Assembly (NCBI GenBank): GCA_000004985.1
Contig: GG738873.1
DNA from: Naegleria gruberi
Taxonomy: Eukaryota
DNA length: 64,000 nt
Strand: one strand, 5' to 3'
Below the pieces are notes generated by a model. The model had not been told where the DNA came from. It worked only from the letters and a program-made list of their open reading frames with translations, and did no database searches. Both the position numbers and the translations under genes were made by a program. Shown piece after piece: positions 24,078 through 47,288 of the stretch (its first letter is position 1; each line of letters starts with the position of its first letter).

Positions 24078-26846
24078 TTATTTATTTTCAAATGGTTGAG
24101 TTAATAATGGTATGGTACACAATGTGTGAGTCTTGTTGCTCATTAACCTGGTGAAGATTCTCTTGATATCAGTGCCGTAGAGATAAAGATTATTACCAGA
24201 GAAGGTTGGAGTGAAAGAAGAAACAGAAGGGATAACATCTCCCGAAACAGTCCATGAACCAACTGGGTCACTTGTTGGAGTGTAAACAACTCTGTAATTG
24301 AAATCATTCAGAGATCTTGAATGTCCTTTGCTTGGATAACCACCAAATATGAAAATGTAATCTCCTGTTACCACCATTGGCCCATCAGAGTAGGTAAATG
24401 GCAATACAGAGAAGGTATTTTCCCACAGATAGGGGAAAATATATCTAGCTCTCAAAATATCAGAGTAGGCTTCTTGAGATGGTGATCTACCCCCAAAAAT
24501 ATAGATATAATCACCGATCATGGCTATGTTACCACCATACACAGGTTGTGGGAGTTTTTTAGAGACTATTTCAAAGTTGTAAGGTGCATTGATAGGGGCA
24601 CGAATTATCATGTCAGTAACATTATTAATTGAAATGTCAAAGTTCAAGATGCCACCATAAATGTAGATGTAATCGTCTACAACCAATGACATACCAGAAG
24701 CAACTGCATATGGTAAGGTATTTTTCATCAACTCCCACCCATTCTCTATATCACTGACAGGAGCACGATAAATCTTATTGCTGAGGGTTCCATTCACCAC
24801 ACCACCATAAAAATAAATATATTCTTGAGCTCTGGCTATATGCGTGTTATAAATGGTACCAGGGAAGGTTCTTTTTGTCTTGTTTTGGTAATTCACAAGA
24901 TCCCAAGTCATAGGGTCACTCAAGTTTCTATAATACAACTGGAAGCCATTATCCACAAGTGGATAATACTTATCACCAACAAACTGATAGGCCTTATCAT
25001 CAGTTTCAAAATATGGGTAATGTCTTCTTTCAAGAGTAAAGCCAGTGGTGTTGTCAAAGGTAAAAACTTTTCTAAAATTGGATGTTACAGGTTCAAAAAC
25101 GTCAAACAATTGTCTTTCGGTTTGGGAGGAATATCCAGCACCTACAAACGCTCCATCGGTTGTCAAGCCAACAGCCGACCTGTACATCATTGTTATTTCA
25201 GTAATTTTGTGGTTGTATAATTCATCATTGGAGAGAGGAATAACTTCTGTTGCCACATTCATAAGAGCAGAAAGACCACCTGTGTGACCTAATTGCCCAT
25301 TAGAATTATCACCCCAAGAGAACCACTTTCCATCGTTACAAAGTACAAAGGAATTTCTAAACTTGGAATAGAGGGCAACAATAGATCTGCCAGCACCAAT
25401 ACCAGCCATTTCAATTGGTGTAGGGACAGTGAGGTATGGTGAATTGATACCTGTTCCACACTGACCTTTGTCATTTTTTCCCCAAGCAAAAACTTTTCCT
25501 GATTCTGTCAATACAGTTGTAAAATCATCACCACACTTCAAATCAACAACTATCTCTCCTGCAAAGCTTTCTGGTAAATTTACAGCAACAGCTTCCATTT
25601 TATATTCAGCGGAGGAGGCGCTTCCAATACCTAGTTGACCGTATGTGTTGTCGCCAAATGAATACAGACTATTATTTGAGGTTAAGACAGCAGTGTGTGA
25701 CAAACCACCACAAACCTTAACAATGTACTGATTGGCTAGAGCACCATCCATGTATACATCAACCGGTCTCACCTTTGTCACAGTTGTTTTATCACCAAGT
25801 TGGCCTCTATGATTTCTTCCCCAGGCATATAACTTGCCGTTTTCCTTAATGGCATAGAAAGTAAAAGCACCAGCAGCAATTTGCTCAACATCTTGAGGAC
25901 CTTGCAAGTCCCAAGAGAATAATTTGAATGGTACTTTTTTGTGAACGGCAACGGTTCCATCACCAACTTCGCCATAGTCATTTCTTCCCCAAGTGTAAAC
26001 AGCATCACCAGCCAAGAGAATGTTACTATAGTACGAAGAATCGAATTGAAGAATTGTAAGATTGACATTTGTAGAATAGTTTGGCAACTCAACTGGTGTA
26101 CTAAGTGTTGGAACATATCCTGTGCCCATAGTAGTTCCTAATCTACCCAAACATCCATCACATTCAACACCCCAGGAATAAAGTTTTCCATTGCCATGAA
26201 GATAAAGTCCATGGTCTCTTCCAGCTGATAGCCTATTTCTTTCACGCACAACCTTCTTAAAGGTTGCATAGTTTGGCAGATACCCATATGTAAGATTAAA
26301 ATGCAACGGAACAGGAATTGTACTAATGTTAGTATTGGTCCACTTAGAAGGATCATTCAAATAGTTCAAGGAATCTATTACCAGATCTTTCAAGGAACTA
26401 TATGTTGTATTAAAACCTTGATTGGTGAGAGCAATGAGACTGTCAAGTTCTTTTTCAACAGAAACAACATTCTCATATTGGGTAACCTTATTTTTAAGAA
26501 TTGCTTCGTATTGGTCTTGAGGGATACCAAAATCAGATATAAATTCTTTCGAGTACTTTACAGCTTCACTAATAACAGTGATTTTTTCTTTAATATTTGC
26601 TTTGACCATGTCTGCTTTTTGTTGTAAATAATCTTGATTAACAGCATAATAACTATCTCTTCTTTCTCTAAGACTAGCAATATTATAGTAAGCTTCATCT
26701 AACGGGAGTTGCTCTGATAATACTTGATTGATTACTGTTATATTAAGCATTGTAAATAATCATTTAATATTAATAAATAGAAACATCAACCTACCCGAAG
26801 CAACAAGCAATAGTAACACAACCACAATTGTGGCATTCAGCTTCAT
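24078..26846 (-). CDS. Secreted RCC1-repeat + Kelch-repeat protein, family member 4. Exons (minus strand): 26846..26794, 26732..24078.
   Basis: Exon 1 encodes MKLNATIVVVLLLLVAS followed by a phase-1 donor gtaggt. The acceptor is ...ataacag, after which the sequence reads VINQVLSEQ.... Then come a helical stalk, GYLPNYATFKKVVRERNR, seven RCC1 blades (YSWGVECDGCLGR, YAWGRNHRGQLGD) and Kelch blades (YIYFYGGVVNG, YIYIYGGILN, YIYIFGGRSP, YIFIFGGYPS). Confidence 0.8.
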
Positions 26847-27018: not shown

Positions 27019-29799
27019 ATGAAAATCAAGCCATCCCCAAACACGCACATCAACAAACGGGTGGTTTTTTGCGTCCTCCTCGCTTTGCTAGGACTTGGTA
27101 AGTAGTGTGGAGGAATAATATGTTGACACGTTTAAAGTATTTGTAGTGGTCAAGGCTCAATCAGAACAATCTTTCAGTGAATATGTACTTTCCTTAATGT
27201 TCATGATTCAAAAAAGACAAAGTTTGATGGGAATTGAAACAGATTATTTAAGTGAAGCTGACAAAATTATCTACAAGGAGAAAATAATTTATAATACAAA
27301 ATATGCAATGGAAAGGTCTCTAGCCTCTATTAACAAGCTTGGTGTTAAAGAACAAACATATACCATACTTCTCTCAGCCAAACAAAACGAAGCAGCAGCC
27401 GCTTGGGACTCTCTTGTTGAAGTTAACAGTTATATCAATGTTACTAAGCATGCTGTTTCAGTTGCCTACTCAACCATTGATTCAATCAATGAGGTATGTT
27501 TTTTTACAATTTTTGTTGCTGAACCAGTTAGAAATTATCGAATGTACTTCTAAGCTACCACCATTGGCAAAAAACTGACCTCGATTTATTGCCAGCAAAC
27601 ATGACTCTCAATACTACAGTTGGTTATCTCCCAAATCATGTAATGTATTTCCCAGTTATGAGAATTAGAAATAGAATTTCTGCTGGATTAAATCATGGTT
27701 TGTTCCTTGGCCCTGGTGGTAATTTGTATTCTTGGGGTGTTGATATGGGTGGTTCTTTGGGAAGATCTGTTAACACACCAATGCCAAGTTTGGATTTGCC
27801 TGTAGAATTGAAGAACGTTACCATTCTTCAGTTCACTAACTCTTACTATGGAAATCTGTTGCTAGCTGATGATGCCGTCTATTCATGGGGAAAGAATGAC
27901 TATGGAGTTGATGCTGATGGTACAACTGTGAATCATTACCAACCAAGGAAGGTCTTTTCATGGGATTTACAAGGTCCTAAAGGAATCGCTCAGATTGCTT
28001 CTGGCCCATATAACTTTTATGCTATTGACGAAAATGGTAAACTCTATTCATGGGGAAAGAATGATTTTGGCCAACTTGGCGATAGAACTCCAATTGACAA
28101 ATGGAGACCTGTGGACGTTTTTATGAAGGGTGCTTTGCTTAATCAAACAGTTACCAGAGTTTGTGGTGGTTTGACTCATACTCTTGTCCTTGCCAACAAT
28201 GGAATGCTTTACTCTTTTGGTGATAACTCTAAAGGACAACTTGGTATCGGAGTTAGTTCCTCAGTTATTGCAAAGAAATGGGAACCTGTCCTCATCAATT
28301 TCCCATTCAATGACACAATTGCAGATATTCAATGTGGTGATAACCACAACCTGGTGCTCTTGACTGGAGGTGCCATGTATGCTTGGGGTCTTAACGACTA
28401 TGGGCAACTTGGAGATAATACCACAACAACAAGAACAAAACCAACCAAAGTCAACACACTCTCAGCTATTGGTACAAGAAAAGTTGTCAAGATTGAATCA
28501 AGACTCAACGAGAATTTTGCCTTCTTGGAAAATGGAGCCATGGTTTCATGGGGTCAAAATGATTATTCTCAATTAGGTCATTCCAAAATAGCAATTATAG
28601 GCAATATTGCCACCACCTTTATAAATGTTCCGGTAGAGTTTAGCTTACCCAATGGTTATATGCCTTCTGAAATAGCAATCATGAATGGATCAACTGTAAT
28701 TCTTGGTGCAAATGGCACCCTTTATGGTGCTGGATTTTCTTCAGAAAGTACCAGAAAACTGTTGAACATCACCACTTCCCAAACTAAGTTTACCCAGTGT
28801 TACACCTTCCCACCTATATACCCAGTTATGGAAAGAAGACATTATCCATATATCCAACTCAACGAAAAGAGCTATGCATTTATTGGATCCAAGTACTTTT
28901 CTTACCCTGATAATGGGTTTGATGGATACGTGAGGAATAACACCTCTCCAGAATTGTGGTCAATGATTGATTATCAAAATACAACATCACAGATGTTCCC
29001 TGGTTCCATTTACAATACTCATATTTTGAGAACTAACCAACATGTTTACTTCTATGGTGGTTTTGTTAATGGATCAATTTCAAACCTTATTTACAGAGCT
29101 CCAGTGGATAATATTGAAAATGGATGGGAAATTGTTAAGCCAACGCTCCCATTCCCAGTTTCAAACGGTATGTCCATTTTATTGGATGACTTTTTCTACA
29201 TATTTGGTGGCTTGACTTGGTTTAATAGCACAGACAAAGGATTCGTATCAATTGGTGTTTCATCAAGTATTTTGAGATGTCATGTTTCCAGTCCAACCCA
29301 ATGGGAAATAATGAGTGGTGGTGGGTTGCCAAGAGGTGTCTATAGTGGCAATATTGCAAGAATTGGAGATTTCGTCTATATTTTGGGTGGGCGAGTTAAC
29401 ACGGGTGATGCGTTTGCTGACATCTTCAGAGCTCCTTATTTGAATATTAGTCAATGGGAAAATACTTACTCAGTGCTTCCATTCCCTTTATCTGATAGCC
29501 CAATGATAATTACCAATAGTAGTATCTACCTCATGGGAGGATATTTGTCTGAGTACTCTCCAAATATTATTGGTACATACTATCCTCATATTATTACAGC
29601 TCCTCTAAGTGATCCAGTTGGTTCATGGTCTGTTACTGGAGACAAGCTCCCAACTAATCCAGCTTTTCAATCTGTTACTTCGCCAGTAGTTGTTGGATCG
29701 AATGTATATTTATACGGTAATGATGCCTCAAAGATAACAGAGACAAACATCAGAAGTACCACTGTCAGCTCATTCATTAAGATTCCTCTATTGGTTTAA
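27019..29799 (+). CDS. Secreted RCC1-repeat + Kelch-repeat protein, family member 5. Exons: 27019..27097, 27147..27493, 27532..29799.
   Basis: Exon 1 encodes MKIKPSPNTHINKRVVFCVLLALLGLG followed by gtaagt. The signal ends ...VVKA|QSEQ. The intron 27494-27531 is gtatgt...cagttag and is phase 0. Exon 3 reads KLSNVLLSYHHWQKTDLDLLPANMTLNTTVGYLPNH.... RCC1 blades include YSWGKNDYGVDADG and YSWGKNDFGQLGD. Kelch blades include VYFYGGFVNG, FFYIFGGLTW, VYILGGRVN and IYLMGGYLS. Confidence 0.8.
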
Positions 29800-29990: not shown

Positions 29991-32751
29991 ATGATCTGGA
30001 GCAATACTCATGTAGAGGTTAGTCCAAAGAGCATTGGGCTTGCCGTGGTATTGTTATTTGTATCAATATCTTTTATTTGTAAGTTTCTCCAAGTAATAAT
30101 TGAAGCATATAGTCCATATAGGTGTTACTTCAAGTGCTCAAACAACCCAATACAATAGCACATTAACTTCAGAATTGTTTTACAAACTGTCATTTTACAG
30201 AGAAAGACGAGATAGTTTTTACCAGATTTACACAGACTACGTTCGTCAAAATCAAGAAATAGAAGAATCCAGAATTAAATTGAAAATTAATATTACAAAA
30301 GAGGCTGTAGAAGCTTCTTTTTATGAAATTACAAAATTAAGAATTCCAGTTGAACAATACTATCAAATGCTGAATAATAAGAATATACAATACGCAAACC
30401 TAGAAGAGGTTCAGAAGGAGCTTGATGACTTGATCACATTGACTGATCTTGGTTTCCTACACACCCAATCCACCCTAGATGATGTAGAAAAAGTAAGTCC
30501 TTCAGTTATTGGAAATGCTTATCGGTAATAGTCTGCTTCTAACATTTTGTACAATGAAGAAAAATGGCAATTGGCCAAAACAAGGAAGATAGTTTCCTCA
30601 ATGAACTTTACTACGACTGTTGGATTTCTTCCTAGTCATGCTAGATCTCACAAAATACCAAGAATTAGAAATAGAGTGTCTGCAGGAAAAAATCATGGTA
30701 TTCTTCTTCATTATAATGGACTACTCTATTCTTGGGGCGCTGACAATGGTGGTGCTTTAGGTAGACCAAATAGTGCAGGTGTCTCATCTTTTACTCTCTC
30801 TACCCCTGTTGAATTACCAAAGAATATTTCCATTCTTCAATTTGTTAGCTCAAACTATGCCAATTTGGTTCTTGCTGGAGATGCAGTTTATTCTTGGGGC
30901 AGAAATGAATACGGAGTTGTTGGTGATGGTACTTTTGGTGGAAATAAGCCACCATACAAGTTATTCTCTTGGGATTTGCAAGGTCCAAAAAGAATTGAGC
31001 AAATTGGAGCTGGAGGCTACACTTTTTATGTAATTGATGAAAATGGAAAAGCATATGCTTGGGGCAGAAACAATAGAGGCCAACTTGGAGACAAAACAAC
31101 CATTGACAAGCCAAGACCAGTTGACGTCTACATGAAAGGCATTTTACTCAATCAAACAGTCATTAGGGTTTGTGGTGGAGAAAGTCACACTTTGTTGTTG
31201 ACTAGTAATAATGAATTAGCGGCTATGGGTGACAACACTTATGGGCAATTAGGTGTGGGTACTTCTGGTGGATATAAAATGGAACCAACAAGAGTCAACA
31301 TCAAATTTAATGGTACTATTATGGACATACAGTGTGGTGAAAATTATAACCTTGTCTTAACTTCCAAAGGGTTGGTATACGGTTGGGGAAGGAACGATGT
31401 TGGTCAACTTGGAAGTGGAGACAAGCTAGACAAGTTGGAACCTACTCTTATTTCCTACCTTAAAAACAGCACAGTAGTCAAGATTTATGCCAGATTTTCG
31501 ACCTCATTTGCTCTTACCAATGAAAGTTTCTTATATGCTTGGGGTAATAACAATCAATACCAATTGGGTGCTAGTTCAGCCACCCTTTTTACAGTACCTC
31601 AAAATATAACACTCCCAGAATATGTGACTGTTGTTGACTTGGCTGTCATGCAAGGAACAACTGTATTTTTAGGAAATAATGGTACTTATTACGGTAGTGG
31701 TGGATCAACTAATGGAGAACTGCTCCGTATTTCATCACAACAACCAGCCTTCGACTGGATTTATAATGGATTGAGTTTTTATGGGTTTGCAATGGAAAGA
31801 AGAAGATATCCATATTTTGAAGTGGATGATATTGCCTACCAGTTTGTAGGGGACAATTTTGCAATCTTTCCAGATAATGGTTTTTACCTTTATAAGAGAA
31901 ATATTGCAGATCCAACAATGGGTTCGATTGTAGAATACAGAAACAATACTGGCAAATTCTTCCAAGGAACAATTTACAATTCTCATATGCTTAGACTAGG
32001 AGAATATTTCTACCTGTACGGAGGGGTGGTAAATAACACTATCTCTAATGCTATCCATAGATGCAAAACATCTGATCTGGAAAGTGGATGGGAGCTTACT
32101 AGATTCAAACTTCCTTATAATGTATCAGCTGGTCAATCATTACTGGTAGATGACTTTTTCTATATTTTTGGTGGTCTTGTTAGTCTAAGTGATGACTCTG
32201 ATAGCCCAAAGTTAAGTCTCAACGTTACTGACATGATTTTGAGATTCCACATCTCTAATCCCTTCACTCCTGAAATACTATCACAAAGATTACCACTAGG
32301 TGTTTATAGTGGTCAAATTGCTAGAGTTAAGGATTATTTGTACATATTTGGGGGAAGAACTCAAGATCCAAATGCACCATACAGCGATATCTTGAAAGCG
32401 TCCTATTTCAAACCTACCGTATTTGAAAACTCTTACTCTGTTTTGCCATACCAAGTTACAGATGGTTCGTTAATAGTTACAGAAAACTTTGTTGTTATAT
32501 TTGGTGGCTTTTACAGTGGTCTTTACCCATACAATGCAGGAAGATTCAACTATGAAATTGTATCAACCCCATCTGATGAGCCTGTTGGTTCTTGGATGGT
32601 GACTGATTATAAGATTCCAGGATTAATGAGGGCGACCCCTTCAATCATGGGTTCAACACTTTCTCTGTTCGGAGAGGATGTCAGAATGGTCAACACATTC
32701 CCTCTCTCCAACAGAACTTTCACCATGTTTAACTGCACATTCTTGTTGTAA
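29991..32751 (+). CDS. Secreted RCC1-repeat + Kelch-repeat protein, family member 6. Exons: 29991..30078, 30123..30492, 30532..32751. The first acceptor is ambiguous by 9 nt.
   Basis: Exon 1 encodes MIWSNTHVEVSPKSIGLAVVLLFVSISFI followed by gtaagt. The intron 30493-30531 is gtaagt...aatag and is phase 0. Exon 3 reads SASNILYNEEKWQ...TTVGFLPSH.... RCC1 blades include YSWGADNGGALGR, YSWGRNEYGVVGDG and YAWGRNNRGQLGD. Kelch blades include YFYLYGGVVNN, FFYIFGGLVS, YLYIFGGRTQ and VVIFGGFYS. Confidence 0.8.
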
Positions 32752-34836: not shown

Positions 34837-35341
34837 TCTTGTAAAATACTTGTAAATAATAAATTAAAATAATATATCAAATTGTTTAAAATGGTACCAT
34901 TTTTTCATTGAGGAAAGCTCGCTTCTTCTAATGAATGTTTCTCATGGAATAGATAATTATTTGGTAGATAATGGATGAATGACATGATGAAAATCTGATA
35001 ACAAATATGATGTTTATCAAATAGTACCTCTTTTAATATTCAATGTTCATCATCTTTGGATATCTTTGTTCTATTTCACCCATAATTCGCCAGCCCGCTA
35101 ACAGTTTTCACAAATCTGCCACCCATGTAATGGCACTCCATCCTTCAGGTGGATTTCTTCTCATTATTCAGTTCTTCTTTCTTGGTTCATACTTCAGGTG
35201 GTAAATCTTCTTTCTCCTCCTTTAATACTTTTTTTAACCAATAAAAACGAAAACAATGAGCAAGTACGCCCTTAATGATTGTGTTATAGTCTGTCTAACA
35301 AACCAATCAACAGAACTTTCAAAAATATTTCAAAAATATTG

Positions 35342-35935
35342 GATCAACATCAGGTACATCATGCCTCTGTTGATTCTTGGAGTAGTTTCACATCTATTAA
35401 CTCCAAGAATTTCACCACATCATCTCATCATCATTTAAATAGTAGTATTAATAGTAATTTTTGGAATTTAATTGTTCATCATGATTTGGAAATAATTTTA
35501 TTATTCGGAAACATTCAAGTTGGTACATCATCATCGGAACAACTACCAACCATCATCATTGTTATTTATCATCATTACAATAGTAATATTTGTGGAAATA
35601 AATCTGATAATAGTAATATTTTAGTGAAATTCAATATTTTTCACTAAAATCATCATCACTACCAGATTTATATGATAATTTAGAAAACTTTCAATCTAGT
35701 ATTGTTCAGCATGGTCGATATATATTAGGTAAAATTACTTCCGAACATTTCCCTATTGGTTATCATAATGTTAGGTACATGTATATATTTCAACACCATA
35801 TCTCAACCTGTACTTCACCAACTTGAAAAATGTCTTTCATCACTACTATTCAAATACATAATAAACAATATATTTATTATCAGATTTTCCTAGTTTTGTG
35901 TTTTTACCAACTTCGGGTATTCATAGTCACCAATC
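35342..35935. repeat. Dispersed repeat copy D1, about 600 bp, a direct copy of D2 at 40966-41560.
   Basis: It can be aligned by eye to 40966-41560 at roughly 65-70% identity in the same orientation. Example: catcatctcatcatcatttaaatagtagtattaatagtaattttt in D1 against catctctacatcatctatataatagtagtaatagtgatttttt in D2. The internal ORF 35279-35647 is H/S/N low-complexity and not credible as coding. Confidence 0.55.
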
Positions 35936-37204: not shown

Positions 37205-37570
37205 ACAAAATATCAAACACCAAATCATATCTGTGGCAATGTTTTTCCCACTTTTTTCTAGTGCTCCCTCTTTAAAAGAGGATATGCTTGGTTAAAGTCA
37301 CCACCACAAAATTCAATATTCGATATTAAGTAGTTGAGCGAAAAATCACTTTTCCCAAAAAGGTATATGATTTCATAACTCACTAATTATCTCAATTAAA
37401 ACAAAAGATTAAATATTCAAAAATGACCAGGATATAGTATACATGATATGAAACCATCCATGCAAAATTCAAGATTTATACCATGAATCAAACTACATAT
37501 TTCCTTTTAAAGAGGGTGCACTAGAAAAAAGCGGGAAGATATGGCACATCCGATTCTTTGTGAAATATTT
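37205..37570. repeat. Inverted duplication (foldback). Arms of about 75 bp at 37205-37281 and 37503-37570, about 75-80% identical, with a spacer of about 220 bp.
   Basis: cttttttctagtgctccctctttaaaagagg (37251-37281) is the reverse complement of ccttttaaagagggtgcactagaaaaaag (37503-37531). Both arms carry short coding-like fragments in opposite senses (GSTRKKWEKHCHRYDLVFDIL and GCTRKKREDMAHPILCEIF). Confidence 0.5.
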
Positions 37571-38670: not shown

Positions 38671-39942
38671 ATGTCTCAAGAGGTTGATGATCTTGCCAGC
38701 GACCTGTTGCTAGAAGAGTTTGATAGTCTCACTGTAACAGGGGAGCAGTCTTTCAACTTTGTTCTTGGAGAAAATAGTATTCAAGCAGTCAAAACAAGGA
38801 AAAACTACAACAATCACAATATGGCACTCAAGGATTTTGCTCTTGAAAATCCAGATGTAAATCTGCAAGATTTACAGGTTGGTTGGTTGAAAGATTATTT
38901 TCAATTCCTCCATCAGAATAAGAAAGTAACTGGTCAAACATTATGGCAATATCACTCCAGTCTTGCAAAGCTGTATGCATGTAATTACAATCTTTCGATT
39001 AAGAATGTTGCCAATTATTCAGTTCTGTCTAGTTTCATCAAAGAATTAGAGAAAAACAGTGTAGACAGCACCGCAGGTGCTGAAGATATTCCATTAAGCA
39101 CAGTAATTGGTGTTCTCTCTCAATACCCAGAAGATGGATCAAATATTATGAAAAAGGCTTTTTTTGTATTCACCACAATAAGCTGTAAGAGATGTGATGA
39201 TGCTCATTGTTTACAATTTCATCATTTAACATTCAAAGAAGATTCAATCGATTTTGATATCTCACAAACTGCAACCAATCCAACTTCCAAAAAAACCAAG
39301 ACAGATGCCTGCACTGGTTGTATTGTCAAAAGCAATGTTCTAGAAATATGTCCCTTTAGAATTTTTAAGAAATACACTGATCAAATTGAAGACAAGAAAG
39401 GTCCTGTATTTAGGAGATGGGTTGGTAAAAAGGGTGGTGGTTATTTCGGAAAACAAGCAGTTGGTATTAACACCATGTACAGTTTCTTCCAAGATATTTT
39501 GAAAAGTGTTATTGAAGTATGTCCAGAGGACATACAAATTGAAGAAAGAACTGGTGCTAGAGCACCAGAACACCTTCGTTCCAACAAGACATCCACAAAA
39601 ATTGGTCTTGCTCGTTATACAGGACACACAGGAAGAAAAACAGCTGGTACCATCATTTCCACCATTGCTGCAATGACTGATCTTGAAAGAAAGAAATATG
39701 GTGATTGGAAGAATATGAAAACGGTTGAAACCTACAGCAACAACAATCCTGAAACCAGAAAAATTGCTAGCAAGAAGGTTGTTGATCATTTATCAGATGC
39801 TTTTAAAAGATCCAATGATGAAGAAGAAGAAAGTCAATATGCTCCTGTAGCAAAAAAGAGCAAGTCTTCCGAATCAAGCTTCAGTAATGATGGAAAGACA
39901 TTCGTCTTCAAAAACTGCTCAAATATCACAATAAACTTCTAA
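38671..39942 (+). CDS. Crypton-like tyrosine recombinase (YR). Intact 423-aa intronless ORF.
   Basis: The C-terminal catalytic region reads ...RYTGHTGRKTAGTIISTIAAMTDLERKKYGDWKNMKTVETY. This matches the YR HxxR box (GH[ST]xRxxA) and the GRW-x(8)-Y tyrosine box. A Cys/His cluster lies upstream (CKRCDDAHCLQFHH). No RT, RNase H or integrase is nearby. Confidence 0.65.
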   Translation: MSQEVDDLASDLLLEEFDSLTVTGEQSFNFVLGENSIQAVKTRKNYNNHNMALKDFALENPDVNLQDLQVGWLKDYFQFLHQNKKVTGQTLWQYHSSLAKLYACNYNLSIKNVANYSVLSSFIKELEKNSVDSTAGAEDIPLSTVIGVLSQYPEDGSNIMKKAFFVFTTISCKRCDDAHCLQFHHLTFKEDSIDFDISQTATNPTSKKTKTDACTGCIVKSNVLEICPFRIFKKYTDQIEDKKGPVFRRWVGKKGGGYFGKQAVGINTMYSFFQDILKSVIEVCPEDIQIEERTGARAPEHLRSNKTSTKIGLARYTGHTGRKTAGTIISTIAAMTDLERKKYGDWKNMKTVETYSNNNPETRKIASKKVVDHLSDAFKRSNDEEEESQYAPVAKKSKSSESSFSNDGKTFVFKNCSNITINF

Positions 39943-40965: not shown

Positions 40966-41560
40966 AACATCTAGTACGTGATGTACTTTGATGATTTACG
41001 GAGTGGTTTCACATCTTTATACCACAATAATTTCAGCTCGTCATCTCTACATCATCTATATAATAGTAGTAATAGTGATTTTTTATTGGAAAATTATCAT
41101 CATGAAATTAGAAATTATTTTTCATCATGGAAAAATTCATGTTGGTGATACCATCATCTGATCATTTACCAACCATCATCAATGATATTTTCCATCGATA
41201 TAATAATAGTATTTGTGGAAATTAATTTTCAGTAATTTAATTTTAGTTGAAAATCACCATTTTCACTAAATTCATCATCAGTGTGGAATCTACTGTACAA
41301 ATTGGAAATCTGTCAACATAGTATTGTTCGGAATGGTCAATAGTATCAGAAAAGATTTTGTCCGATGACTTTTGGTCAAGTTATGATAGGGAAAGGTATG
41401 TGTGAAATTTGAAAATACACATTATACTACCCATCATGTACTTCACCAAATCAAAAAGTTTCTTCTAGTAGTACTATTTAAATTGATAATAAACATCATA
41501 TTTATTATAATTTATTCCTTTTCTTTTGTGTTGGTCAAGTTCCGGTTGGGTTGACTAAGA
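40966..41560. repeat. Dispersed repeat copy D2, the direct partner of D1 at 35342-35935.
   Basis: See D1 (35342-35935). Together they bracket about 5.6 kb containing the YR ORF and the two foldback structures. Confidence 0.55.
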
Positions 41561-42071: not shown

Positions 42072-42716
42072 TTAATATAATTTAGACTTCAAATGTAACA
42101 TTTCCATCATCTTTTGCAAGCCTTTGGATTGAATTTCTTGTAGACGAGGATAGTTACGAGAGTTGTGAATGACAGATTCAAATCGAGCCATCAAAACTTG
42201 AACTCTATTCAACAACGCCTCATTGGAAGAGTAATGACGAAGTGTTTTGGTTGAGACAAAACTTATGACATCTCCATCGGATAGTCTATCACCAACTTCG
42301 TAGTTACGTCTAATCTCCTTGATAGTAGTTAGACCCCAATGTTTACCAGTGAAATCCTCATCAGCGGATTCCTCATCAAGGTCTTCATCAAGTTGATTAG
42401 CTTGTTGCAGAATAGGAGGAACAGCTTCAAGATGCTTTATTCTCTCACCCAAAGAAGTGATGGCGTTGAAAATAGCATCAAGGTTCTTTTCAGAACCAGC
42501 TTGGTTGTTATCCAAGGTTTTGCTTGTTGGGTCAACCACAGAGGGGAGTGAAGCTGAGCTACCATTGTCAGTTACTAGGATGTAACCTGACTTGTAGGTA
42601 GAAGTTGAAGATTTGCTTACTGAAACTCTTTGACGAATGTTGGAGATATTCGCTTTGCTTGGTGTTTGAACCATTTCAATATACTTAATTTTTTTGAGCA
42701 TAAAATTATTTATCAA
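42072..42716 (-). CDS. Hypothetical acidic protein of 214 aa. Its 5' end and start codon lie inside repeat A.
   Basis: It has an ORF with an internal Met MLKKIKYIE. A truncated copy of the first approximately 130 bp (promoter plus the first 9 codons) recurs at 45255-45385. No recognisable domain. Confidence 0.35.
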   Translation of the reverse strand: MINNFMLKKIKYIEMVQTPSKANISNIRQRVSVSKSSTSTYKSGYILVTDNGSSASLPSVVDPTSKTLDNNQAGSEKNLDAIFNAITSLGERIKHLEAVPPILQQANQLDEDLDEESADEDFTGKHWGLTTIKEIRRNYEVGDRLSDGDVISFVSTKTLRHYSSNEALLNRVQVLMARFESVIHNSRNYPRLQEIQSKGLQKMMEMLHLKSKLY

Positions 42717-42776
42717 CTCAATTTTATTGTTTACAATTTGTCGAAATGCTAACGTTGCATCGTTCCTCGCAACTCT
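42650..42776. repeat. Repeat A (A1), about 90% identical to 45255-45385 (A2) in the same orientation.
   Basis: cttaatttttttgagcataaaattatttatcaactcaattttattgtttacaatttgtcgaaatgctaacgttgcatcgttcctcgcaact occurs in both copies with a few mismatches. Confidence 0.7.
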
Positions 42777-43826
42777 ACATTATTGAATCTTCTGTAGCCT
42801 TGTTGATTGTTGGATTGATAAGTATTACCTTGTCCTTGGTTGAAGTTGTTGTAGTTGTAGCCAGCTTGTCTAGTATTGTATCTAGTGAGGAACTTACGAA
42901 AATTAAGGGTTCTGCTAGCCCATTTGCTGACTTTTTCAATAGTTTCTGTGTTTGAATGGGCATTAAAAATGACTTTGAAGCAGCTGAAAACTTCTCTAAC
43001 AGCTACAAATCAGGAGGTTCACTTAACCAAATCACCTCCAAACAACAAGAGAAGACGATTAAATCTGCTGAAAAAGTAAAAACAGCAGAAGATTAGATTT
43101 AACTCAGAAATATTCTAAATAAATTCAAATCCTTGAAGAATAAGTGGTAAATCAAGAATATCACTCTCTCAAACGCTTGCAGATTTCAATGACTCACCAA
43201 ACATTCTTTGGTAAGAGTCGATGATGTGGTTTTTAAACCAATCATCTAGTTCATCAGCAACTCTTGCACTTTTACCAGAAACCTCTTCAGATGGGTTGGA
43301 CTCAAACAATTCCATCGAAGAAGCGAGAGTAGAAGTACTTTGTGAACCAACCTTGGCGTTGTTTGAGTCTTTGTCAGGTGATATCTTTTGCTGATTGTTC
43401 TTTTTCGTGTCTTGAAGGCATAGCAGAACTATTAGATGAATTTGAGGTGGAAGGAGTTAGAATAATAACTCGTTTCTCGCTACCTGCAGAAGGTGAGCTA
43501 AGGTCTTTCGTTTTCTTGTTGTTCTTTGGTGTAGTTGGTGTTTTGTAATTCTAGAGTGAAACAATTTGTTGAACGTGTAGAATGTATGTGTTCTGAATGA
43601 TTATAATAAATTGAATGTTATTTGCTTAAATTTATTGAGTTTCATGTTCAAAAAATTTATCTAAACTAAATGTCTTCAAGAAACATTTTAACTTCTGCTT
43701 CTAAAGCAAGAAATGATAGGTCCCACCCTGTTCTTATCGAAGTTTACTGAGATAAAGTAGTGTTTCTTGAAAACAACAATTGAATAAACTAATAATAGAA
43801 AGTATGCTCAAAAAAATTGTCATACT

Positions 43827-44954
43827 ATGGTCGCTAAGAAGCCTCAAGATATTGACTCCTCTTTATCTGATGAAGATCTCCCAGCAGTTGAAGTAGAATA
43901 CCTCATAACACTAGTGAAAGCAAGAAAACAACAAGCTGCTAAGAAGCTTAGAAAGTTAAAGGCCATGTCACCTGTAGCTAATAGAAATAAGCGCAAACAA
44001 TTTACTTCAGTTTCATCATCTAACAGTGCCTTAGATGATGGTATTTCAACTGTTGTTTCCAGTTCGTTGTTAAACAATTCAACATTGTTGGATAGTTCTT
44101 CAACTGCACCCTCTTCGTCAAACAATTCGTCTTCTTCCAATTCAGGTAGAGATAGTTTTACCAGTAGTTCATCTGAACATGATATCATGGTGATCAAAGC
44201 CCAAATGCAAGAAATGATTGGAGTTTTGAGAACCGTAACAGGAAATATCTCTGAACTTACTAAGAAAGTTCAGGAGAGAGAAGAAGAATCAGATGATGAT
44301 TTTGTTAATCCAGAAGCTATATCTTTAGAAGTTTGGTTACGTCAAACTTATAGAGACCTTAGAAGTTCTTACAATGTTCCTTCATCTATTGGAGATGATT
44401 TATTACTTTCTGCAGTATCCTCCGAGATACTTAAAGACCGTAAACAAGAGGAGACCAAGAGAAGAATTCAATATTTGCTCCTTAAATACAAGGATGTGAT
44501 TTCCAAGTTTGCCCCAGACATTAGATTGGATGAGATTAACAGTATTGGTTATTCTAAACTAGTAGAGTTAACTCAAATCAAAATTGAATTGTTGGAATAT
44601 GCATTGAATTCTCCACTTGATTTTACAGTCATGACAGAGATTACAGAACTTTGTAGAATGATTTGCAAAGTTGAAGCCCTCTTCCTTAAAGAAGGTTTAC
44701 AAGTTTCCACTTTCGATGTTGGTAGAGAATTCCTTAACAGATACATTTCTACTAATAGTTTCGAAACTGCTGCCGAAAGTGAACTTCATAATATTAGAAC
44801 AACATATCATTACTACAAAGCAACCAAGCAGCAACAAGGTCCAAAGGGAATTACCAAGAAGTATTCTAAGAAGAAACCGTTTCAAAAGAAAAACAATAAG
44901 GGTCAAGGAAACGATGGTAAATTCCAAGGAAAAGATAAGGATAAGTCAGAATGA
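43827..44954 (+). CDS. Hypothetical 375-aa protein with a Ser-rich low-complexity N-terminal half, a helical C-terminal half and a basic K-rich tail. It may be a TE-associated (Gag-like?) ORF.
   Basis: A single ORF located between the split direct repeats A1 and B1. No recognisable catalytic motif. Confidence 0.3.
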   Translation: MVAKKPQDIDSSLSDEDLPAVEVEYLITLVKARKQQAAKKLRKLKAMSPVANRNKRKQFTSVSSSNSALDDGISTVVSSSLLNNSTLLDSSSTAPSSSNNSSSSNSGRDSFTSSSSEHDIMVIKAQMQEMIGVLRTVTGNISELTKKVQEREEESDDDFVNPEAISLEVWLRQTYRDLRSSYNVPSSIGDDLLLSAVSSEILKDRKQEETKRRIQYLLLKYKDVISKFAPDIRLDEINSIGYSKLVELTQIKIELLEYALNSPLDFTVMTEITELCRMICKVEALFLKEGLQVSTFDVGREFLNRYISTNSFETAAESELHNIRTTYHYYKATKQQQGPKGITKKYSKKKPFQKKNNKGQGNDGKFQGKDKDKSE

Positions 44955-45126
44955 CTCTTCCACTAATAAAGATTTTTATCCAATCAAAGCAGGTTCTATA
45001 ACTGAATCACCAATTTGGTGAAACAGTTACCTGACTCTAAAACCCATTTGTCTCTAATCAATTTGTTACTCTTTTTATTATAATCTATGAAGAACATTTA
45101 ACTTGATAAATTTTTCAAATTATAAA

Positions 45127-45441
45127 TATTATTTCTCCAAATAAAACAATAAAGAATTTCGTTGATAAACCAATGGGTAGAAGCTCACTCAACATATTCT
45201 TCATCCAAAGGATGAGGTATGTTGCTCGGAAATGCTGCCTTTTAGGTCATTGACTTTATTCAGCAATGATTTTGCTTGGTGTGTTTACCATGTTTCTTAA
45301 TTTTTTTGAGCATAAAAATTATTTATCAACTCAATTTTATTGTTTACAATTTGTCGAAATACTAACGTTGCATCGTTCCTCGCAACTAGCCATATTTCTC
45401 CAAATAAAACAATAAAGAATTTCGTTGATAAACCAATGGGT
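45127..45441. repeat. Split direct-repeat block: B1 (45127-45177), A2 (45255-45385) and B2 (45391-45441).
   Basis: atatttctccaaataaaacaataaagaatttcgttgataaaccaatgggt occurs twice, at 45127-45177 and 45391-45441, flanking the A-repeat copy. This gives the order A1 ... B1 A2 B2 known from Ngaro/PAT-like DIRS elements. Confidence 0.5.
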
Positions 45442-45644
45442 TAGTCCAGAGAAAATAGAGTGTTAGTGAAATTCTTGCCAGCTAGGCCTTCAGATCTAAG
45501 GTAAGGAAATAAACTTTTTTCCTTTTTATGTCTTGCACCGACCATTAGATCAGTTGTAGACATACCCTTTCTGAGTCCTTCTGTGATAGCACCTATTCTA
45601 AGGCTGTGACCTGAGACTGTTACGCCTTGATCTACTATACCCAC
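45441..45644 (-). pseudogene. Tyrosine-recombinase C-terminal fragment (Crypton/DIRS-type YR), degraded.
   Basis: SGHSLRIGAITEGLRKGMSTTDLMVGARHKKEKSLFPYL contains the YR HxxR box (GHSLRIGAIT) and a degenerate GRW...Y tyrosine box. Only 67 codons are open and there is no N-terminal domain. It lies directly beside B2. Confidence 0.6.
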
Positions 45645-45780
45645 TGCATTCTTTAGTATTTTTGAAATACCATCTGAATCTTAGTAGTACCGTTTCAGTT
45701 TTACCTAGTTGTAATAAACACCGGAAATTTATTTATGTTTTTAACTATAAAAGCTGAAAGTAGTCAAATGTTGATATTTG

Positions 45781-45782
<2 letters not shown>

Positions 45783-45812
<30 letters not shown>
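45783..45812. repeat. (AT)15 microsatellite.
   Basis: A perfect AT dinucleotide run. Confidence 0.9.
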
Positions 45813-45815
<3 letters not shown>

Positions 45816-46311
45816 AATAGATGTTAGATATTAGTTGTTCCATTTATTTTTAAACCTATCACTCCATCAACCTCCATGAATCTAGTTGTCTATTTCTTGT
45901 TGTAAGAGTTTTTCTTTGTTTTAATAAACAACTATCACAACTCTAATTTTACTACTTCTAATAGCAGTGTTTTTGTAATATTTTTACAAAGTTTGTTCTT
46001 TCTTTGAATTCATTTTCTTTGGATTTACCATAAAGATTATTACTTCCAATCAATAATCTTCATAATGATAATACCAACTTTAGAAGATTTTTAAAAATTA
46101 ATGGTTTTTTATATTTTATATATTACTTTGTTAAGCTTTTCTAAATTTCAAATCGATAAATTTTTGAAAATTTATTTTAGCTTCTTAATTTTCAATTAAT
46201 TTCATTATCTTTATATCTAAATCACTTTTAAATGCTTTTTCAGATAAACCAATTAAACCACCATCTTATAAACCAACTTGCAACAAAAATTTTTTCGGAT
46301 GTATATATATA

Positions 46312-46327
46312 TATATATATATATATA
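46312..46327. repeat. (TA)8 microsatellite.
   Basis: A perfect TA dinucleotide run. Confidence 0.9.
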
Positions 46328-46366
46328 AATGCATGCGAAAATTTTTATTTTATTTATATTAAATAT

Positions 46367-47288
46367 CTAATATGACAAACATATCCCACCAACGCATGTA
46401 TGAAAATTCGTATTTTTNNNNNNNNNNNNNNNNNNNNNNNNNNNNNNNNNNNNNNNNNNNNNNNNNNTATTATATGTGAAATTACCAATTGTAATATTAT
46501 TGCTTGTAAAGTTACTAATTGTAAAGTTACTAATTGTAATGTTATCACTCGTAAGGTTACGGATTGTTAAATTAGTATATGTGAAATTACCAATTGTAAT
46601 GTTATCACTTGTAAAGTTACTATTTGTAAAGTTACCAATTGTAATATTATCACTCGTAAGGTTAGTGTTTGTAAAGTTACTGCTTGTTGAATTAGTATAT
46701 GTGTAATTACCAATTGTAATATTATCACTTGTAAAGTTACTATTTGTAAAGTTACTGATCGTTAAATTAGTATATGTGTAATTACCACTTGTGGTATTCT
46801 CATATGTAAAATTATAATAGGTAAAATTGTTGAGTGTCAAATTCGGTATTTCCGTAATTCTCATCACCTCGTTTTCTGGATAATTTGCATCATTTTGGCA
46901 ATTTTGTCCCGTAATAGAATTTCTAAAACATTTACAAAAATCAGGCTTGGTACAATTACCATTTCCACTGCAAACAAGTGGATCTTCTGATTTAACACCA
47001 AAACAAATTGGTAAAGAACAATTTGATCCATAATATCCTTCTCTGCAAGTGGTTACATTTAAGAGACCTGTTGCATTCTTCTTGGAGCAAAGATACAAAT
47101 TATCACCTGTTGGGTTTGTACAATCAATTTCAAGATCAAGAGTTCCATTAATCTTTGTATTATTACATTTACCTTCAGGATTGGTACATGTCGCCATACT
47201 AACATTTGTTTGACACTGTGTGCCAATAAAACCAACTTTGCAAGAACATTGATTTGGTTTCTCACAATAACCATTTCCTGAACAAACC
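46367..47288 (-). CDS. Second paralog of the giant EGF-like/LamG extracellular protein, C-terminal part only. Its 5' end is in the N gap.
   Basis: The ORF ends at the stop at 46367. It contains EGF motifs (REGYYGSNCSLPICFGVKSEDPLVCSGNGNCTKPDFCKC). Positions 46958-47060 match window positions 1-103. The C-terminal approximately 130 aa are N-x-T pentapeptide repeats. The sequence continues open to the gap at 47289. Confidence 0.75.
46468..46860. repeat. 15-nt tandem repeat of at least 23 units with an approximately 90-nt higher-order period. It encodes N-[F/I/L]-T-x-x pentapeptide glycosylation-sequon repeats on the minus strand and is interrupted by the 50-N gap at 46418-46467.
   Basis: Units include tgtaaagttactaat, tgtaatgttatcact and cgtaaggttacggat. 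The translation reads ...NFTSDNITIGNFTNSNFTSDNITIGNFTYTNLT.... Confidence 0.8.

What the first reader, a model, noticed from the sequence alone, without database searches (positions are those of the whole stretch)
42650..45644. Ngaro/PAT-like split direct repeats (A1 ... B1 A2 B2) adjoining a degraded YR fragment
Repeat A at 42650-42776 recurs at 45255-45385. A 50-bp repeat B occurs at 45127-45177 and again at 45391-45441, giving the order A1 - internal - B1 A2 B2. This is the terminal architecture of Ngaro/PAT/DIRS-order retroelements. A tyrosine-recombinase fragment (HSLRIGAIT box) lies directly beside B2 at 45441-45644 on the minus strand. The internal region of about 2.4 kb holds only a 375-aa ORF (43827-44954, Ser-rich plus helical, possibly Gag-like) and no RT. 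The A1 copy overlaps the promoter and start of a minus-strand gene (42072-42716). This could be a deleted, non-autonomous DIRS-like element, or a rearrangement that coincidentally duplicated a gene's 5' end.
Basis: partly seen in the sequence, partly recalled or inferred. Interest (0 to 1): 0.55.

Follow-up and report, generated by a model that had tools for sequence, protein, structure and literature searches.

The report
Cluster of broken DIRS-type retrotransposon fragments
The repeats and the recombinase fragment are real, but they are the remains of three different, already truncated tyrosine-recombinase (DIRS-type) retrotransposons lying side by side in the amoeba Naegleria gruberi, not one deleted element; this is ordinary transposon debris.

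Summary
A1/A2 are about 91% identical, B1/B2 are 100% identical, and a tyrosine-recombinase (YR) C-terminus abuts B2.

The window is Naegleria gruberi. Full-length relatives fetched from public assemblies show the order A leader, gag, RT/RNase H/Dam-like domain, YR, then B.

- **Orientation.** The repeats belong to the minus strand.
- **E1, 45680→45130.** This is the 3' end of a "family 2" element: the last 79 YR codons, B, A2, an 81-nt spacer, then B. Its first 421 nt are 99.5% identical to the full-length copy L005.
- **E2, 42784→42083.** This is the 5' end of a different "family 1" element: A1 plus gag codons 1-200. A1 and A2 are therefore not one element's repeats.

The 375-aa ORF (E3, 43729-44964, plus strand) is the gag of a third family. 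It is 98% identical to L003, a copy that carries RT and YR, and it is cut just after the gag stop.

The DIRS-order call is right, and the elements carry a Dam-like domain, so they are not Ngaro. B-A-B fits split direct repeats. B is also an inverted partial copy of A.

DIRS1-like elements were already reported in N. gruberi, so interest is low.

The parts
42083..42784 (-). E2: 5' fragment of a 'family 1' DIRS-type element. It holds the A1 leader (about 42654-42780) and gag codons 1-200 (ATG at 42674). It is truncated so that the ORF ends LHLKSKLY* at 42072.
   Evidence: - 77% DNA identity to L002 632-1332, and 75% to L005 133-883.
- The protein is identical over the whole of P0006 (NAEGRDRAFT_49699, sequence read), 99.5% identical to P0028, and 96.5% identical to residues 1-199 of the full-length family-1 gags P0004 and P0024.
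- Homology stops at gag codon 200 of about 340.
42785..43728 (.). 944 nt of unassigned DNA between E2 and E3. It is duplicated together with E2 on another N. gruberi contig.
   Evidence: - No homology to any fetched DIRS locus.
- The N-terminal exons of gene model P0028 (3453-nt contig) map to 43541-43458 and 43417-43199 at 88-93% identity and continue into E2.
- No Pfam hit.
- A gag profile gives only non-significant hits here (E 1-12).
43729..44964 (+). E3: 5' fragment of a 'family 3' DIRS-type element. It holds the leader 43729-43826 and the complete 375-aa gag-position ORF 43827-44954. It is cut 10 nt after the stop, so pol and YR are missing.
   Evidence: - 98.1% identical to L003 61-1287.
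- L003 continues with an RVT_1 plus Dam-like pol (637 aa) and a 297-aa YR.
- The protein is 100% identical to P0030 (NAEGRDRAFT_49700) and 97% identical to four further N. gruberi copies.
44965..45129 (.). 165 nt of unassigned DNA between the truncated end of E3 and the outer B copy.
   Evidence: No homolog in loci L001-L007 or elsewhere in the window.
45130..45178 (-).
   Evidence: 49/49 identical to 45393-45441 and to L005 79-127 and 4059-4107.
45179..45259 (.). 81-nt spacer between A2 and the outer B. Its origin is unknown.
   Evidence: - No match in L001-L007 or in the window.
- Homology to L005 ends exactly at 45260.
45260..45392 (-). A2: internal copy of the family-2 5' end. It covers the leader plus the first 10 gag codons (MVNTPSKIIA).
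   Evidence: - 100% identical to L005 128-260, within a 260-nt 100% match.
- N. gruberi family-2 gag P0026 starts MVNTPSKIIA.
- Contains the invariant 15-mer ATGCTCAAAAAAATT at 45299-45313.
45393..45441 (-). Inner copy of repeat B. It begins at the last base of the YR stop codon and abuts A2.
   Evidence: -.
- On the element strand, B is an inverted copy of an internal ~40-nt stretch of A at about 78% identity (0 of 5000 shuffles reach the score).
- The B-A2 region folds as a long hairpin (z = -4.1).
45441..45680 (-). C-terminal 79 codons plus stop of a family-2 tyrosine recombinase. It holds the catalytic H-x-x-R, H and Y. Everything upstream is missing.
   Evidence: - 99.3% DNA identity to L005 3820-4107.
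- 97.5% protein identity to the L005 YR, 86% to N. gruberi P0024, and 51% to the family-3 YR.
- Catalytic spacing is as in Cre.
- Of the eight distant homologs scanned, six carry Pfam Phage_integrase at E<=1e-4, four above gathering.
42687..42701 (-). Invariant 15-mer ATGCTCAAAAAAATT in the leader, 10-25 nt upstream of gag. It also occurs at 43804-43818 (+) and 45299-45313 (-).
   Evidence: - 3 exact matches in the window against 0.04 expected.
- Identical in all six leaders aligned: three window copies plus L001, L002 and L008, whose gag proteins are only 25-40% identical.

Best explanation
The 3.6 kb from 42083 to 45680 is a small graveyard of DIRS-order retrotransposons in Naegleria gruberi. 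DIRS-order elements use a tyrosine recombinase (YR) instead of an integrase. Three related families are each represented by one truncated piece.

**Intact elements (shown from full-length relatives).** A full unit is about 4 kb and reads:
- A, a roughly 130-nt 5' leader that includes the first codons of ORF1;
- the gag-position ORF1;
- an RT / RNase H / Dam-like pol;
- a YR in a long overlapping frame;
- B, 49 nt starting at the YR stop;
- a second copy of A.

**The pieces in the window.**
- E1 is the 3' end of a family-2 element on the minus strand: YR tail, B, A2, 81 nt, B.
- E2 is the 5' end of a family-1 element on the minus strand: A1 plus gag codons 1-200.
- E3 is the 5' end of a family-3 element on the plus strand: leader plus the 375-aa gag.
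- None can transpose. There is no RT in the window and no complete YR belonging to these elements.

**How the repeats work (inferred from the published model for split-direct-repeat elements).**
- The internal B-A junction is a stored copy of the joined ends.
- During reverse transcription it lets the incomplete ends of the cDNA be restored and closed into a circle.
- The YR then recombines the circle's B|A junction with the chromosome, leaving no target duplication.
- B is an inverted partial copy of A, so the junction lies inside an imperfect palindrome of about 115 nt. This is the layout expected for a YR binding and crossover site.
For: **Organism and copy number**
- Close homologs of the 375-aa ORF are named N. 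gruberi predicted proteins.
- Each family has several copies on different scaffolds.

**Full-length references**
- L005 is a 3980-nt unit. It has a 356-aa gag, a pol with RVT_1 (E 4.7e-26) and Dam (E 4.6e-5), and a YR. Its nearest solved RT is Ty3.
- L003 has a 372-aa gag, an RVT_1/Dam/RVT_3 pol and a YR. Its A1 (61-306) has an unrelated 5' flank, and A2 (4079-4324) follows YR and an inverted leader piece.
- L002 has A, gag, RT and YR.

**Assignment of the window pieces**
- E1 matches L005 3820->260 over 421 nt with 2 mismatches and no gaps.
- E2 and E3 are assigned.

**The 5' end of A is an element boundary**
- Three unrelated flanks meet at ATG..AGTTGCGAGG: window A1, L002 and L008.

**Inverted B/A relation**
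- It is significant in three families: 0, 3 and 0 of 5000 shuffles reach the observed score.
- The B-A2 hairpin has z = -4.1.

**Literature**
- DIRS1-like elements are reported in N. gruberi, with 7 copies in 6 families (PMC3266345).
- DIRS is an annotated repeat class in N. lovaniensis (PMC6125883).
- The split-direct-repeat model and class definitions come from PMC4157794 and PMC6681497.
Against: - No single intact genomic copy showing A1 ... B1-A2-B2 from end to end could be fetched. The N. gruberi scaffolds themselves are not in the DNA-retrievable collections.
- In E1, A2 and the outer B are separated by 81 nt of unknown origin. The canonical layout has none.
- The ends of L005 overlap by exactly the assembler's k (127). 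That contig is therefore a circular graph path, which fits tandem arrays or circles as well as collapsed split repeats.
- The Dam hits are below Pfam's gathering score.
- The locus lies 0.7 kb from a 50-N gap and 1.6 kb from an N run of at least 16.7 kb, so local misassembly cannot be excluded.
- The replication and integration steps are taken from models of other DIRS-order elements. They are not shown here.
Confidence: 0.85

Rival explanations
1. E1 is not a split-direct-repeat terminus. It is a relic of a head-to-tail tandem array, or of an integrated circle junction. In that reading the unit is simply A-gag-pol-YR-B. The B-A junction is the boundary between two units, and the outer B is what is left of a second, almost wholly deleted unit.
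For: - L005 closes on itself with a 127-nt (= k) overlap.
- In L003, A2 runs at least 246 nt into gag, up to the contig end, as a second unit would.
- Integration of a circle into a resident B|A junction would naturally create tandems (inference).
Against: - Three independent copies start with A directly after unrelated flanks and no B.
- L003 has flank-A1 ... YR-B-A2 in one contig, with A1 and A2 differing by 3%. It is therefore not a k-mer wrap.
- The 81 nt between A2 and the outer B match nothing inside the element, so a simple internal deletion of a second unit does not explain them.
Confidence: 0.25
2. One reading: one plus-strand, non-autonomous Ngaro/PAT-like element A1 - (375-aa Gag) - B1 A2 B2 spanning 42650-45441, with a degraded YR outside it.
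For: - The order A ... B A B on the plus strand is formally that of split direct repeats.
- The ORF between the repeats is a gag-position ORF in the plus orientation.
Against: - A is the 5' leader plus start codon of minus-strand gag genes.
- A1 and A2 belong to different families.
- The 375-aa ORF has its own, different leader.
- The YR ORF reads into B on the minus strand exactly as in L005.
Confidence: 0.03
3. The arrangement is an assembly artefact: repeat-induced chimeric joins in a Sanger draft scaffold next to gaps. The juxtaposition of E1, E3 and E2 would then not exist in the genome.
For: - N runs lie at 46418-46467 and from 47289 onward.
- All three pieces are multi-copy repeats.
- E1 is a short 421-nt piece with unassigned DNA on both sides.
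Against: - The unassigned segments are unique sequence joining the pieces.
- The block of E2 plus its 944-nt flank recurs on another contig (P0028).
- Family-1 and family-3 gag genes also appear to be neighbours on a second scaffold, judging from adjacent gene and accession numbers.
- The identity of each piece does not depend on the joins.
Confidence: 0.07
4. A2 is a chance segmental duplication of a host gene's promoter and 5' end, unrelated to the YR fragment.
For: A1 overlaps the start of an annotated 'gene' (P0006).
Against: - That gene is the ORF1 of a retroelement.
- YR tail, B and A2 are contiguous and 99.5% identical to one full-length element.
Confidence: 0.01

Closest known systems
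PAT-like elements (Pat1, Toc, Kangaroo), within the DIRS group of YR retrotransposons
   Same: - A gag-position ORF1, a Ty3/gypsy-like RT/RNase H, a Dam-like methyltransferase-like domain and a YR.
- Repeats are in direct orientation, in the order A1 ... B1 A2 B2, with the internal copies downstream of the YR.
   Different: - B is an inverted partial copy of A at about 78% identity. I did not find this described for PAT-like elements in the papers read.
- An 81-nt spacer separates A2 from the outer B in the only 3' end available.
- Similarity searches by Piednoel et al. placed N. gruberi elements nearer DIRS1-like than PAT references (PMC3266345).
- No phylogeny was done here.
DIRS1-like elements (Dictyostelium DIRS-1, AcasDIRS1 of Acanthamoeba at 3974 bp)
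   Same: - The same domain series and a similar size (about 4 kb).
- A long overlap of the YR frame with pol.
- Ends that are partly inverted copies of each other (A against B).
- A junction copy placed between the YR and the 3' end.
- A tendency of copies to lie next to each other.
   Different: - In DIRS1-like elements the internal regions (ICRs) are the inverse complement of the termini.
- Here the internal B-A copy is a perfect direct copy, and the inverse relation is the imperfect one.
- No inverse complement of the element's start is found after the YR in L003 or L005.
[quoted passage not shown]
   Same: [quoted passage not shown]
   Different: These groups lack the methyltransferase-like domain. 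The Naegleria pol proteins have a Dam-like region (PF05869, E 4.6e-5 and 7.8e-4).

Membership tests
DIRS order (YR retrotransposons) | Reverse transcriptase / RNase H of the LTR-retroelement type | tested here: met
   - Met in the full-length relatives of the window pieces. L005 pol has RVT_1 at E 4.7e-26 and its best PDB match is Ty3 RT (1.2e-20). L003 pol has RVT_1 at 3e-26 and RVT_3 at 0.017.
- The window itself holds no RT.
DIRS order (YR retrotransposons) | Tyrosine recombinase in place of a DDE integrase | tested here: met
   - The window fragment 45680-45441 has H-x-x-R ... H ... Y with Cre-like spacing.
- It is 97.5% identical to the L005 YR.
- Of eight distant homologs scanned, six carry Phage_integrase at E<=1e-4, four above gathering.
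- The L003, L005 and L002 YRs hit PF00589 only below the gathering score (E 1.6e-4 to 1.6e-3).
DIRS order (YR retrotransposons) | Gag-position ORF1 upstream of pol | tested here: met
   - The 375-aa ORF and the 214-aa ORF are homologous (E 4e-7).
- Their orthologs sit directly upstream of pol in L002, L003, L005 and L007.
- A capsid fold was not shown, because the model had pLDDT 45.6.
DIRS group sensu stricto (DIRS1-like + PAT-like) | Methyltransferase-like (Dam-like) domain after RNase H | tested here: inconclusive
   PF05869 Dam hits at the expected position: L005 residues 526-632 at E 4.6e-5, and L003 at E 7.8e-4. Both are below the gathering score of 28.1 bits.
PAT-like | Split direct repeats A1 ... 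B1 A2 B2 | tested here: inconclusive
   - B-A2-(81 nt)-B lies after the YR in window E1.
- A1 with a flank, plus YR-B-A2, is seen in one contig (L003).
- A1 has three independent flanks.
- No single intact copy with both ends and both flanks was available.
DIRS1-like | Inverted terminal repeats | tested here: inconclusive
   B (3' end) is an inverted copy of about 40 nt of A (5' end) at about 78% identity. This is significant in three families, but it is short and imperfect.
DIRS1-like | Internal complementary regions: the inverse complement of the element's termini, placed between the YR and the right terminus | tested here: not met
   - The internal copies are direct, not inverse. A2 is 100% identical in direct orientation to the L005 5' end, and B1 equals B2.
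- No inverse complement of the first about 40 nt of A follows the YR in L003 or L005.
Ngaro-like | Absence of the methyltransferase-like domain | tested here: not met
   A Dam-like region is present in both full-length pols, although the hits are weak.
Any DIRS superfamily | Placement in an RT/RNase H or YR phylogeny with reference elements | not tested
- Piednoel et al. assigned N. gruberi elements to DIRS1-like by TBLASTX (PMC3266345).
   A1 is family 1, A2/B are family 2, and the ORF between them is family 3 in the opposite orientation.

The most novel reading that the evidence does not exclude
These Naegleria elements may have a terminal architecture intermediate between the two known DIRS-group designs.

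- They carry the methyltransferase-like domain and were scored DIRS1-like by sequence.
- Their internal junction copy is nevertheless direct, which is the PAT-like split-repeat design.
- Their two ends are still partial inverted repeats, so the circle junction is a conserved imperfect palindrome. That palindrome would be the recombinase's site.

Szitenberg et al. [quoted passage not shown] A living family of this kind would fill that gap. The full-length copies are 98-100% identical to the window pieces.
Probability: 0.3. Interest if true: 0.45.

Novelty: new member of a known kind. Interest (0 to 1): 0.25.

Why it matters
For genome annotation, the result removes several 'predicted protein' genes of N. 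gruberi from the host gene set. NAEGRDRAFT_49699, NAEGRDRAFT_49700 and their paralogs are transposon ORF1s or chimeric models that splice gag to YR.

The result also defines three related DIRS-type families, with their ends and a conserved 15-nt leader motif, in a heterolobosean. That is a lineage far from the organisms in which these elements were worked out.

The wider interest is modest. If the mixed direct and inverted terminal design holds in intact copies, it bears on how the two terminal designs of YR retrotransposons are related.

The tendency of the fragments to sit together next to assembly gaps recalls the DIRS-1 clusters of Dictyostelium.

Tried and rejected
- **Third gag pseudogene at 42785-43728 (minus strand).** A gag profile gave only collinear hits at E 1-12, and tblastn was not significant. 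The region instead corresponds to the N-terminal exons of gene model P0028 and has no Pfam domain. It is left unassigned.
- **Homolog search with the 79-aa YR fragment.** The search for homologous proteins found nothing, most likely because only cluster representatives are indexed. The exhaustive search and cluster listing then found relatives.
- **DNA context of N. gruberi proteins.** P0001, P0002, P0004 and the window's own ORFs are not on record.
- **AlphaFold model of the 375-aa ORF, from 6 sequences.** Mean pLDDT was 45.6 and the model was all-helical. It was too poor for a fold search, so 'Gag' rests on position only.
- **L004 (a distant family) 3' region.** No B1/B2-type repeats were found, so it was uninformative.
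- **Consensus RNA structure of the B-A junction across three families.** It was weak (-4.6 kcal/mol). The palindrome is supported per family, not by the alignment.
- **One tandem or circle junction split by an insertion (E1 + E2).** Rejected because E1 and E2 are different families.
- **The 423-aa YR-like ORF at 38671-39942 as the element's recombinase.** Rejected because it has no significant similarity to the DIRS YRs.


Full report
**Observation**

The two repeat pairs are real.
- A1 (42654-42774) and A2 (45271-45387) align at 91% over 122 nt with small indels. A 73-nt core is 99% identical.
- B1 (45130-45178) and B2 (45393-45441) are 49/49 identical.
- Neither repeat has another copy in the window.
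- The 375-aa ORF (43827-44954, +), the 214-aa ORF (42072-42716, -) and the 67-aa ORF with the HSLRIGAIT box (45441-45644, -) are present.
- Only 47288 bases of the window are sequence. N runs lie at 46418-46467 and from 47289 to the end.

**Organism and multiplicity**

- The 375-aa ORF has 97% identical paralogs named as Naegleria gruberi predicted proteins.
- It is 100% identical to NAEGRDRAFT_49700. From MVQTPSK onward, the 214-aa ORF reads the same as NAEGRDRAFT_49699 (P0006). Both are on a 461,873-nt scaffold.
- The two ORFs are distant homologs of each other (24% identity, E 4e-7).
- A profile search found three groups of such proteins in N. gruberi, each with several copies on different scaffolds.

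**Full-length relatives**

The N. gruberi scaffolds could not be fetched as DNA. Contigs from ENA and Logan assemblies that are 77-100% identical to the window could be fetched.

- **L002** carries an A-like leader, a 339-aa ortholog of the 214-aa ORF, an RT/RNase H ORF, and a YR in an overlapping frame.
- **L005** (4107 nt) has ends that overlap by 127 nt, which equals the assembler's k. It is therefore a 3980-nt unit. The unit reads:
  - A;
  - a 356-aa gag;
  - a pol with RVT_1 (E 4.7e-26) and a Dam-like region (PF05869, E 4.6e-5, below gathering), whose nearest solved structure is Ty3 RT;
  - a YR whose frame is open across the whole pol;
  - B.
- **L003** carries the ortholog of the 375-aa ORF, followed by an RVT_1/Dam-like pol and a 297-aa YR.

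So the two window ORFs are the ORF1 (gag-position) genes of DIRS-order retroelements. A fold-level test of 'Gag' failed because the model was poor (pLDDT 45.6).

**What the window pieces are**

- **E1, 45680->45260 (minus strand).**
  - It matches L005 positions 3820 through the unit end to 260. That is 421 nt without gaps and with 2 mismatches.
  - It comprises the last 79 YR codons and stop, B, and A with the first 10 gag codons (MVNTPSKIIA, the start of N. gruberi family-2 gag P0026).
  - After that come 81 nt that match nothing available, then the second B (45178->45130).
- **E2, 42784->42083 (minus strand).**
  - It is A1 plus gag codons 1-200 of another family.
  - Its protein is 96.5% identical to P0004 and P0024 and 99.5-100% identical to P0028 and P0006, but its DNA is only 75% identical to L005.
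- **E3, 43729-44964 (plus strand).**
  - It is 98% identical to L003 61-1287, which covers leader plus gag.
  - It stops 10 nt after the gag stop.

The window holds no RT. The segments 42785-43728 and 44965-45129 match no DIRS locus. The first of these is co-duplicated with E2 on another N. gruberi contig (P0028).

**The YR fragment**

- It is 97.5% identical to the L005 YR, 86% to N. gruberi P0024 and 51% to the family-3 YR.
- Its H-x-x-R, H and Y align position for position with Cre H289, R292, W315 and Y324. That match alone is not significant.
- An exhaustive search gave 12 hits at E<=1e-3. Eight were scanned and six carry Phage_integrase at E<=1e-4, four of them above Pfam's gathering score.

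- The DIRS-order call, the YR call and the Gag guess were right. A full-length element with matching A and B exists.
- However, the A/B block belongs to the minus strand, where it reads YR-B-A-B.
- A1 and A2 come from different families. Their 91% identity reflects a conserved leader, not the two repeats of one element.
- The DNA between them is not an element interior.

**Terminal architecture**

- The 5' end of A is a true element boundary. Three unrelated flanks (window A1, L002 and the JGI contig L008) meet the element at ATG..AGTTGCGAGG.
- L003 shows, in one contig, a flank, A1, the coding region, a short inverted leader piece right after the YR stop, and A2. A2 is 97% identical to A1.
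- E1 shows A2 ending after 10 gag codons, followed after 81 nt by a second B.
- Together these fit split direct repeats A1 ... B1 A2 B2, the design of PAT-like, Ngaro and VIPER elements (PMC4157794, PMC6681497).
- The Dam-like domain argues against Ngaro.
- The DIRS1-like design needs internal regions that are the inverse complement of the termini (PMC3266345). Here the internal copies are perfect direct copies, so that feature is not met.
- On the element strand, B is an inverted copy of part of A at about 78% identity.
  - The same inverted relation across the post-YR/A2 boundary is significant in three families: 0, 3 and 0 of 5000 shuffles reach the observed score.
  - The B-A2 region folds as a long hairpin (z = -4.1).
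  - An alignment-based consensus structure was weak.
- A 15-mer, ATGCTCAAAAAAATT, is invariant in all six leaders compared.

**Mechanism**

- Shown: the domain content, the order of the parts, the boundaries and the repeat relations.
- Inferred from the published model for split-repeat elements (PMC6681497): the internal B-A junction restores and joins the cDNA ends into a circle, and the YR integrates that circle. I add the suggestion that the palindrome around B|A is the YR site.
- The window copies are dead.

**Open points**

- The origin of the 81-nt spacer is unknown.
- It is unclear whether B-A-B is the canonical 3' end or a tandem relic. L005's circular graph path fits both.
- The superfamily placement by phylogeny was not done.
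- The joins next to the gaps have not been checked for correctness.

**Prior knowledge**

- Piednoel et al. 2011 reported 7 DIRS1-like copies in 6 families in N. gruberi and confirmed them by similarity. They did not annotate the termini.
- DIRS is a listed repeat class in N. lovaniensis.
- The finding is therefore ordinary transposon debris of a known kind. The one modestly unusual feature is the mixed direct and inverted terminal design.

Noticed in passing
window 38671-39942 (+): An intact 423-aa ORF has an N-terminal Phage_int_SAM_5 domain (E 6.8e-7). Its C-terminal region reads like a tyrosine-recombinase catalytic domain (KRCDD ... GHTGRKTAG ... GDWKNMKTVETY). It has no significant similarity to the DIRS YRs of this locus and no PDB match. 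It may be a Crypton-type or domesticated recombinase, 2.1 kb from the DIRS debris.
   Followed up: partly
window 6658-8976 (+), 9452-11086 (-), 20653-23130 (-), 24078-26750 (-), 27589-29799 (+), 30547-32751 (+): An array of six paralogous genes that combine an RCC1-like beta-propeller with Kelch repeats, some with an EGF-like tail.
   Followed up: partly
L005 1300-4056 and L007 1201-3978: The YR reading frame stays open for about 920 codons across the entire RT/RNase H/Dam ORF, which lies in another frame. This is an extreme case of the 'long ORF overlap' described for DIRS1-like elements (PMC3266345).
   Followed up: no
L005 1-127 and 3981-4107: The contig ends overlap by exactly 127 nt at 100% identity, which equals the assembler's k. 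The cut falls exactly at the last base of repeat B. The element thus assembles as a 3980-nt circle-like path, which fits tandem copies, circular DNA or collapsed split repeats.
   Followed up: partly
N. gruberi proteins P0024, P0031, P0028 and P0007: Several annotated N. gruberi 'predicted proteins' are chimeric gene models built on these transposons. Some join gag directly to the YR, with the RT region spliced out. Others join unrelated upstream exons to a truncated gag, or start at the A leader in a shifted frame.
   Followed up: partly
N. gruberi scaffold of 196,593 nt (P0032, P0004, P0008): Family-3 and family-1 gag genes have neighbouring gene and accession numbers on a second scaffold as well (75391/75393; EFC36891/EFC36893). 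This suggests that the different DIRS families tend to lie next to each other, as DIRS-1 does in Dictyostelium. Positions could not be checked.
   Followed up: no
window 41000-41547 and 35379-35918: A 560-nt direct repeat at 71% identity. One copy starts just downstream of the truncated end of E2. No Pfam domain was found in the ORF at 35279-35647.
   Followed up: partly
window 37245-37286 and 37496-37537: A 42-nt inverted repeat, 88% complementary, with arms 209 nt apart. The size and shape are those of a miniature inverted-repeat element.
   Followed up: no
window 46367-47197 (-), with 46453-46873: A cysteine-rich ORF with EGF-like spacing. It continues into a run of degenerate 15-nt (5-aa) repeats rich in N-x-T/S sites. 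It is interrupted by the 50-N gap and runs off into the large N run.
   Followed up: no
window 45783-45812 and 46299-46330: Two (TA)n microsatellites form the arms of a loose inverted repeat in the AT-rich stretch between the truncated YR and the assembly gap.
   Followed up: no
L001 1069-1200: In this environmental relative, the frame after the gag stop begins with GGRLQQFWEKWQIFPKTVAEWIREGIPIHSE, as the pol ORFs of L003 and L005 do. It then breaks off at a perfect hairpin, cataatggcataaaaatctaaaaaatttatgccattatg. This may be another truncated copy.
   Followed up: no
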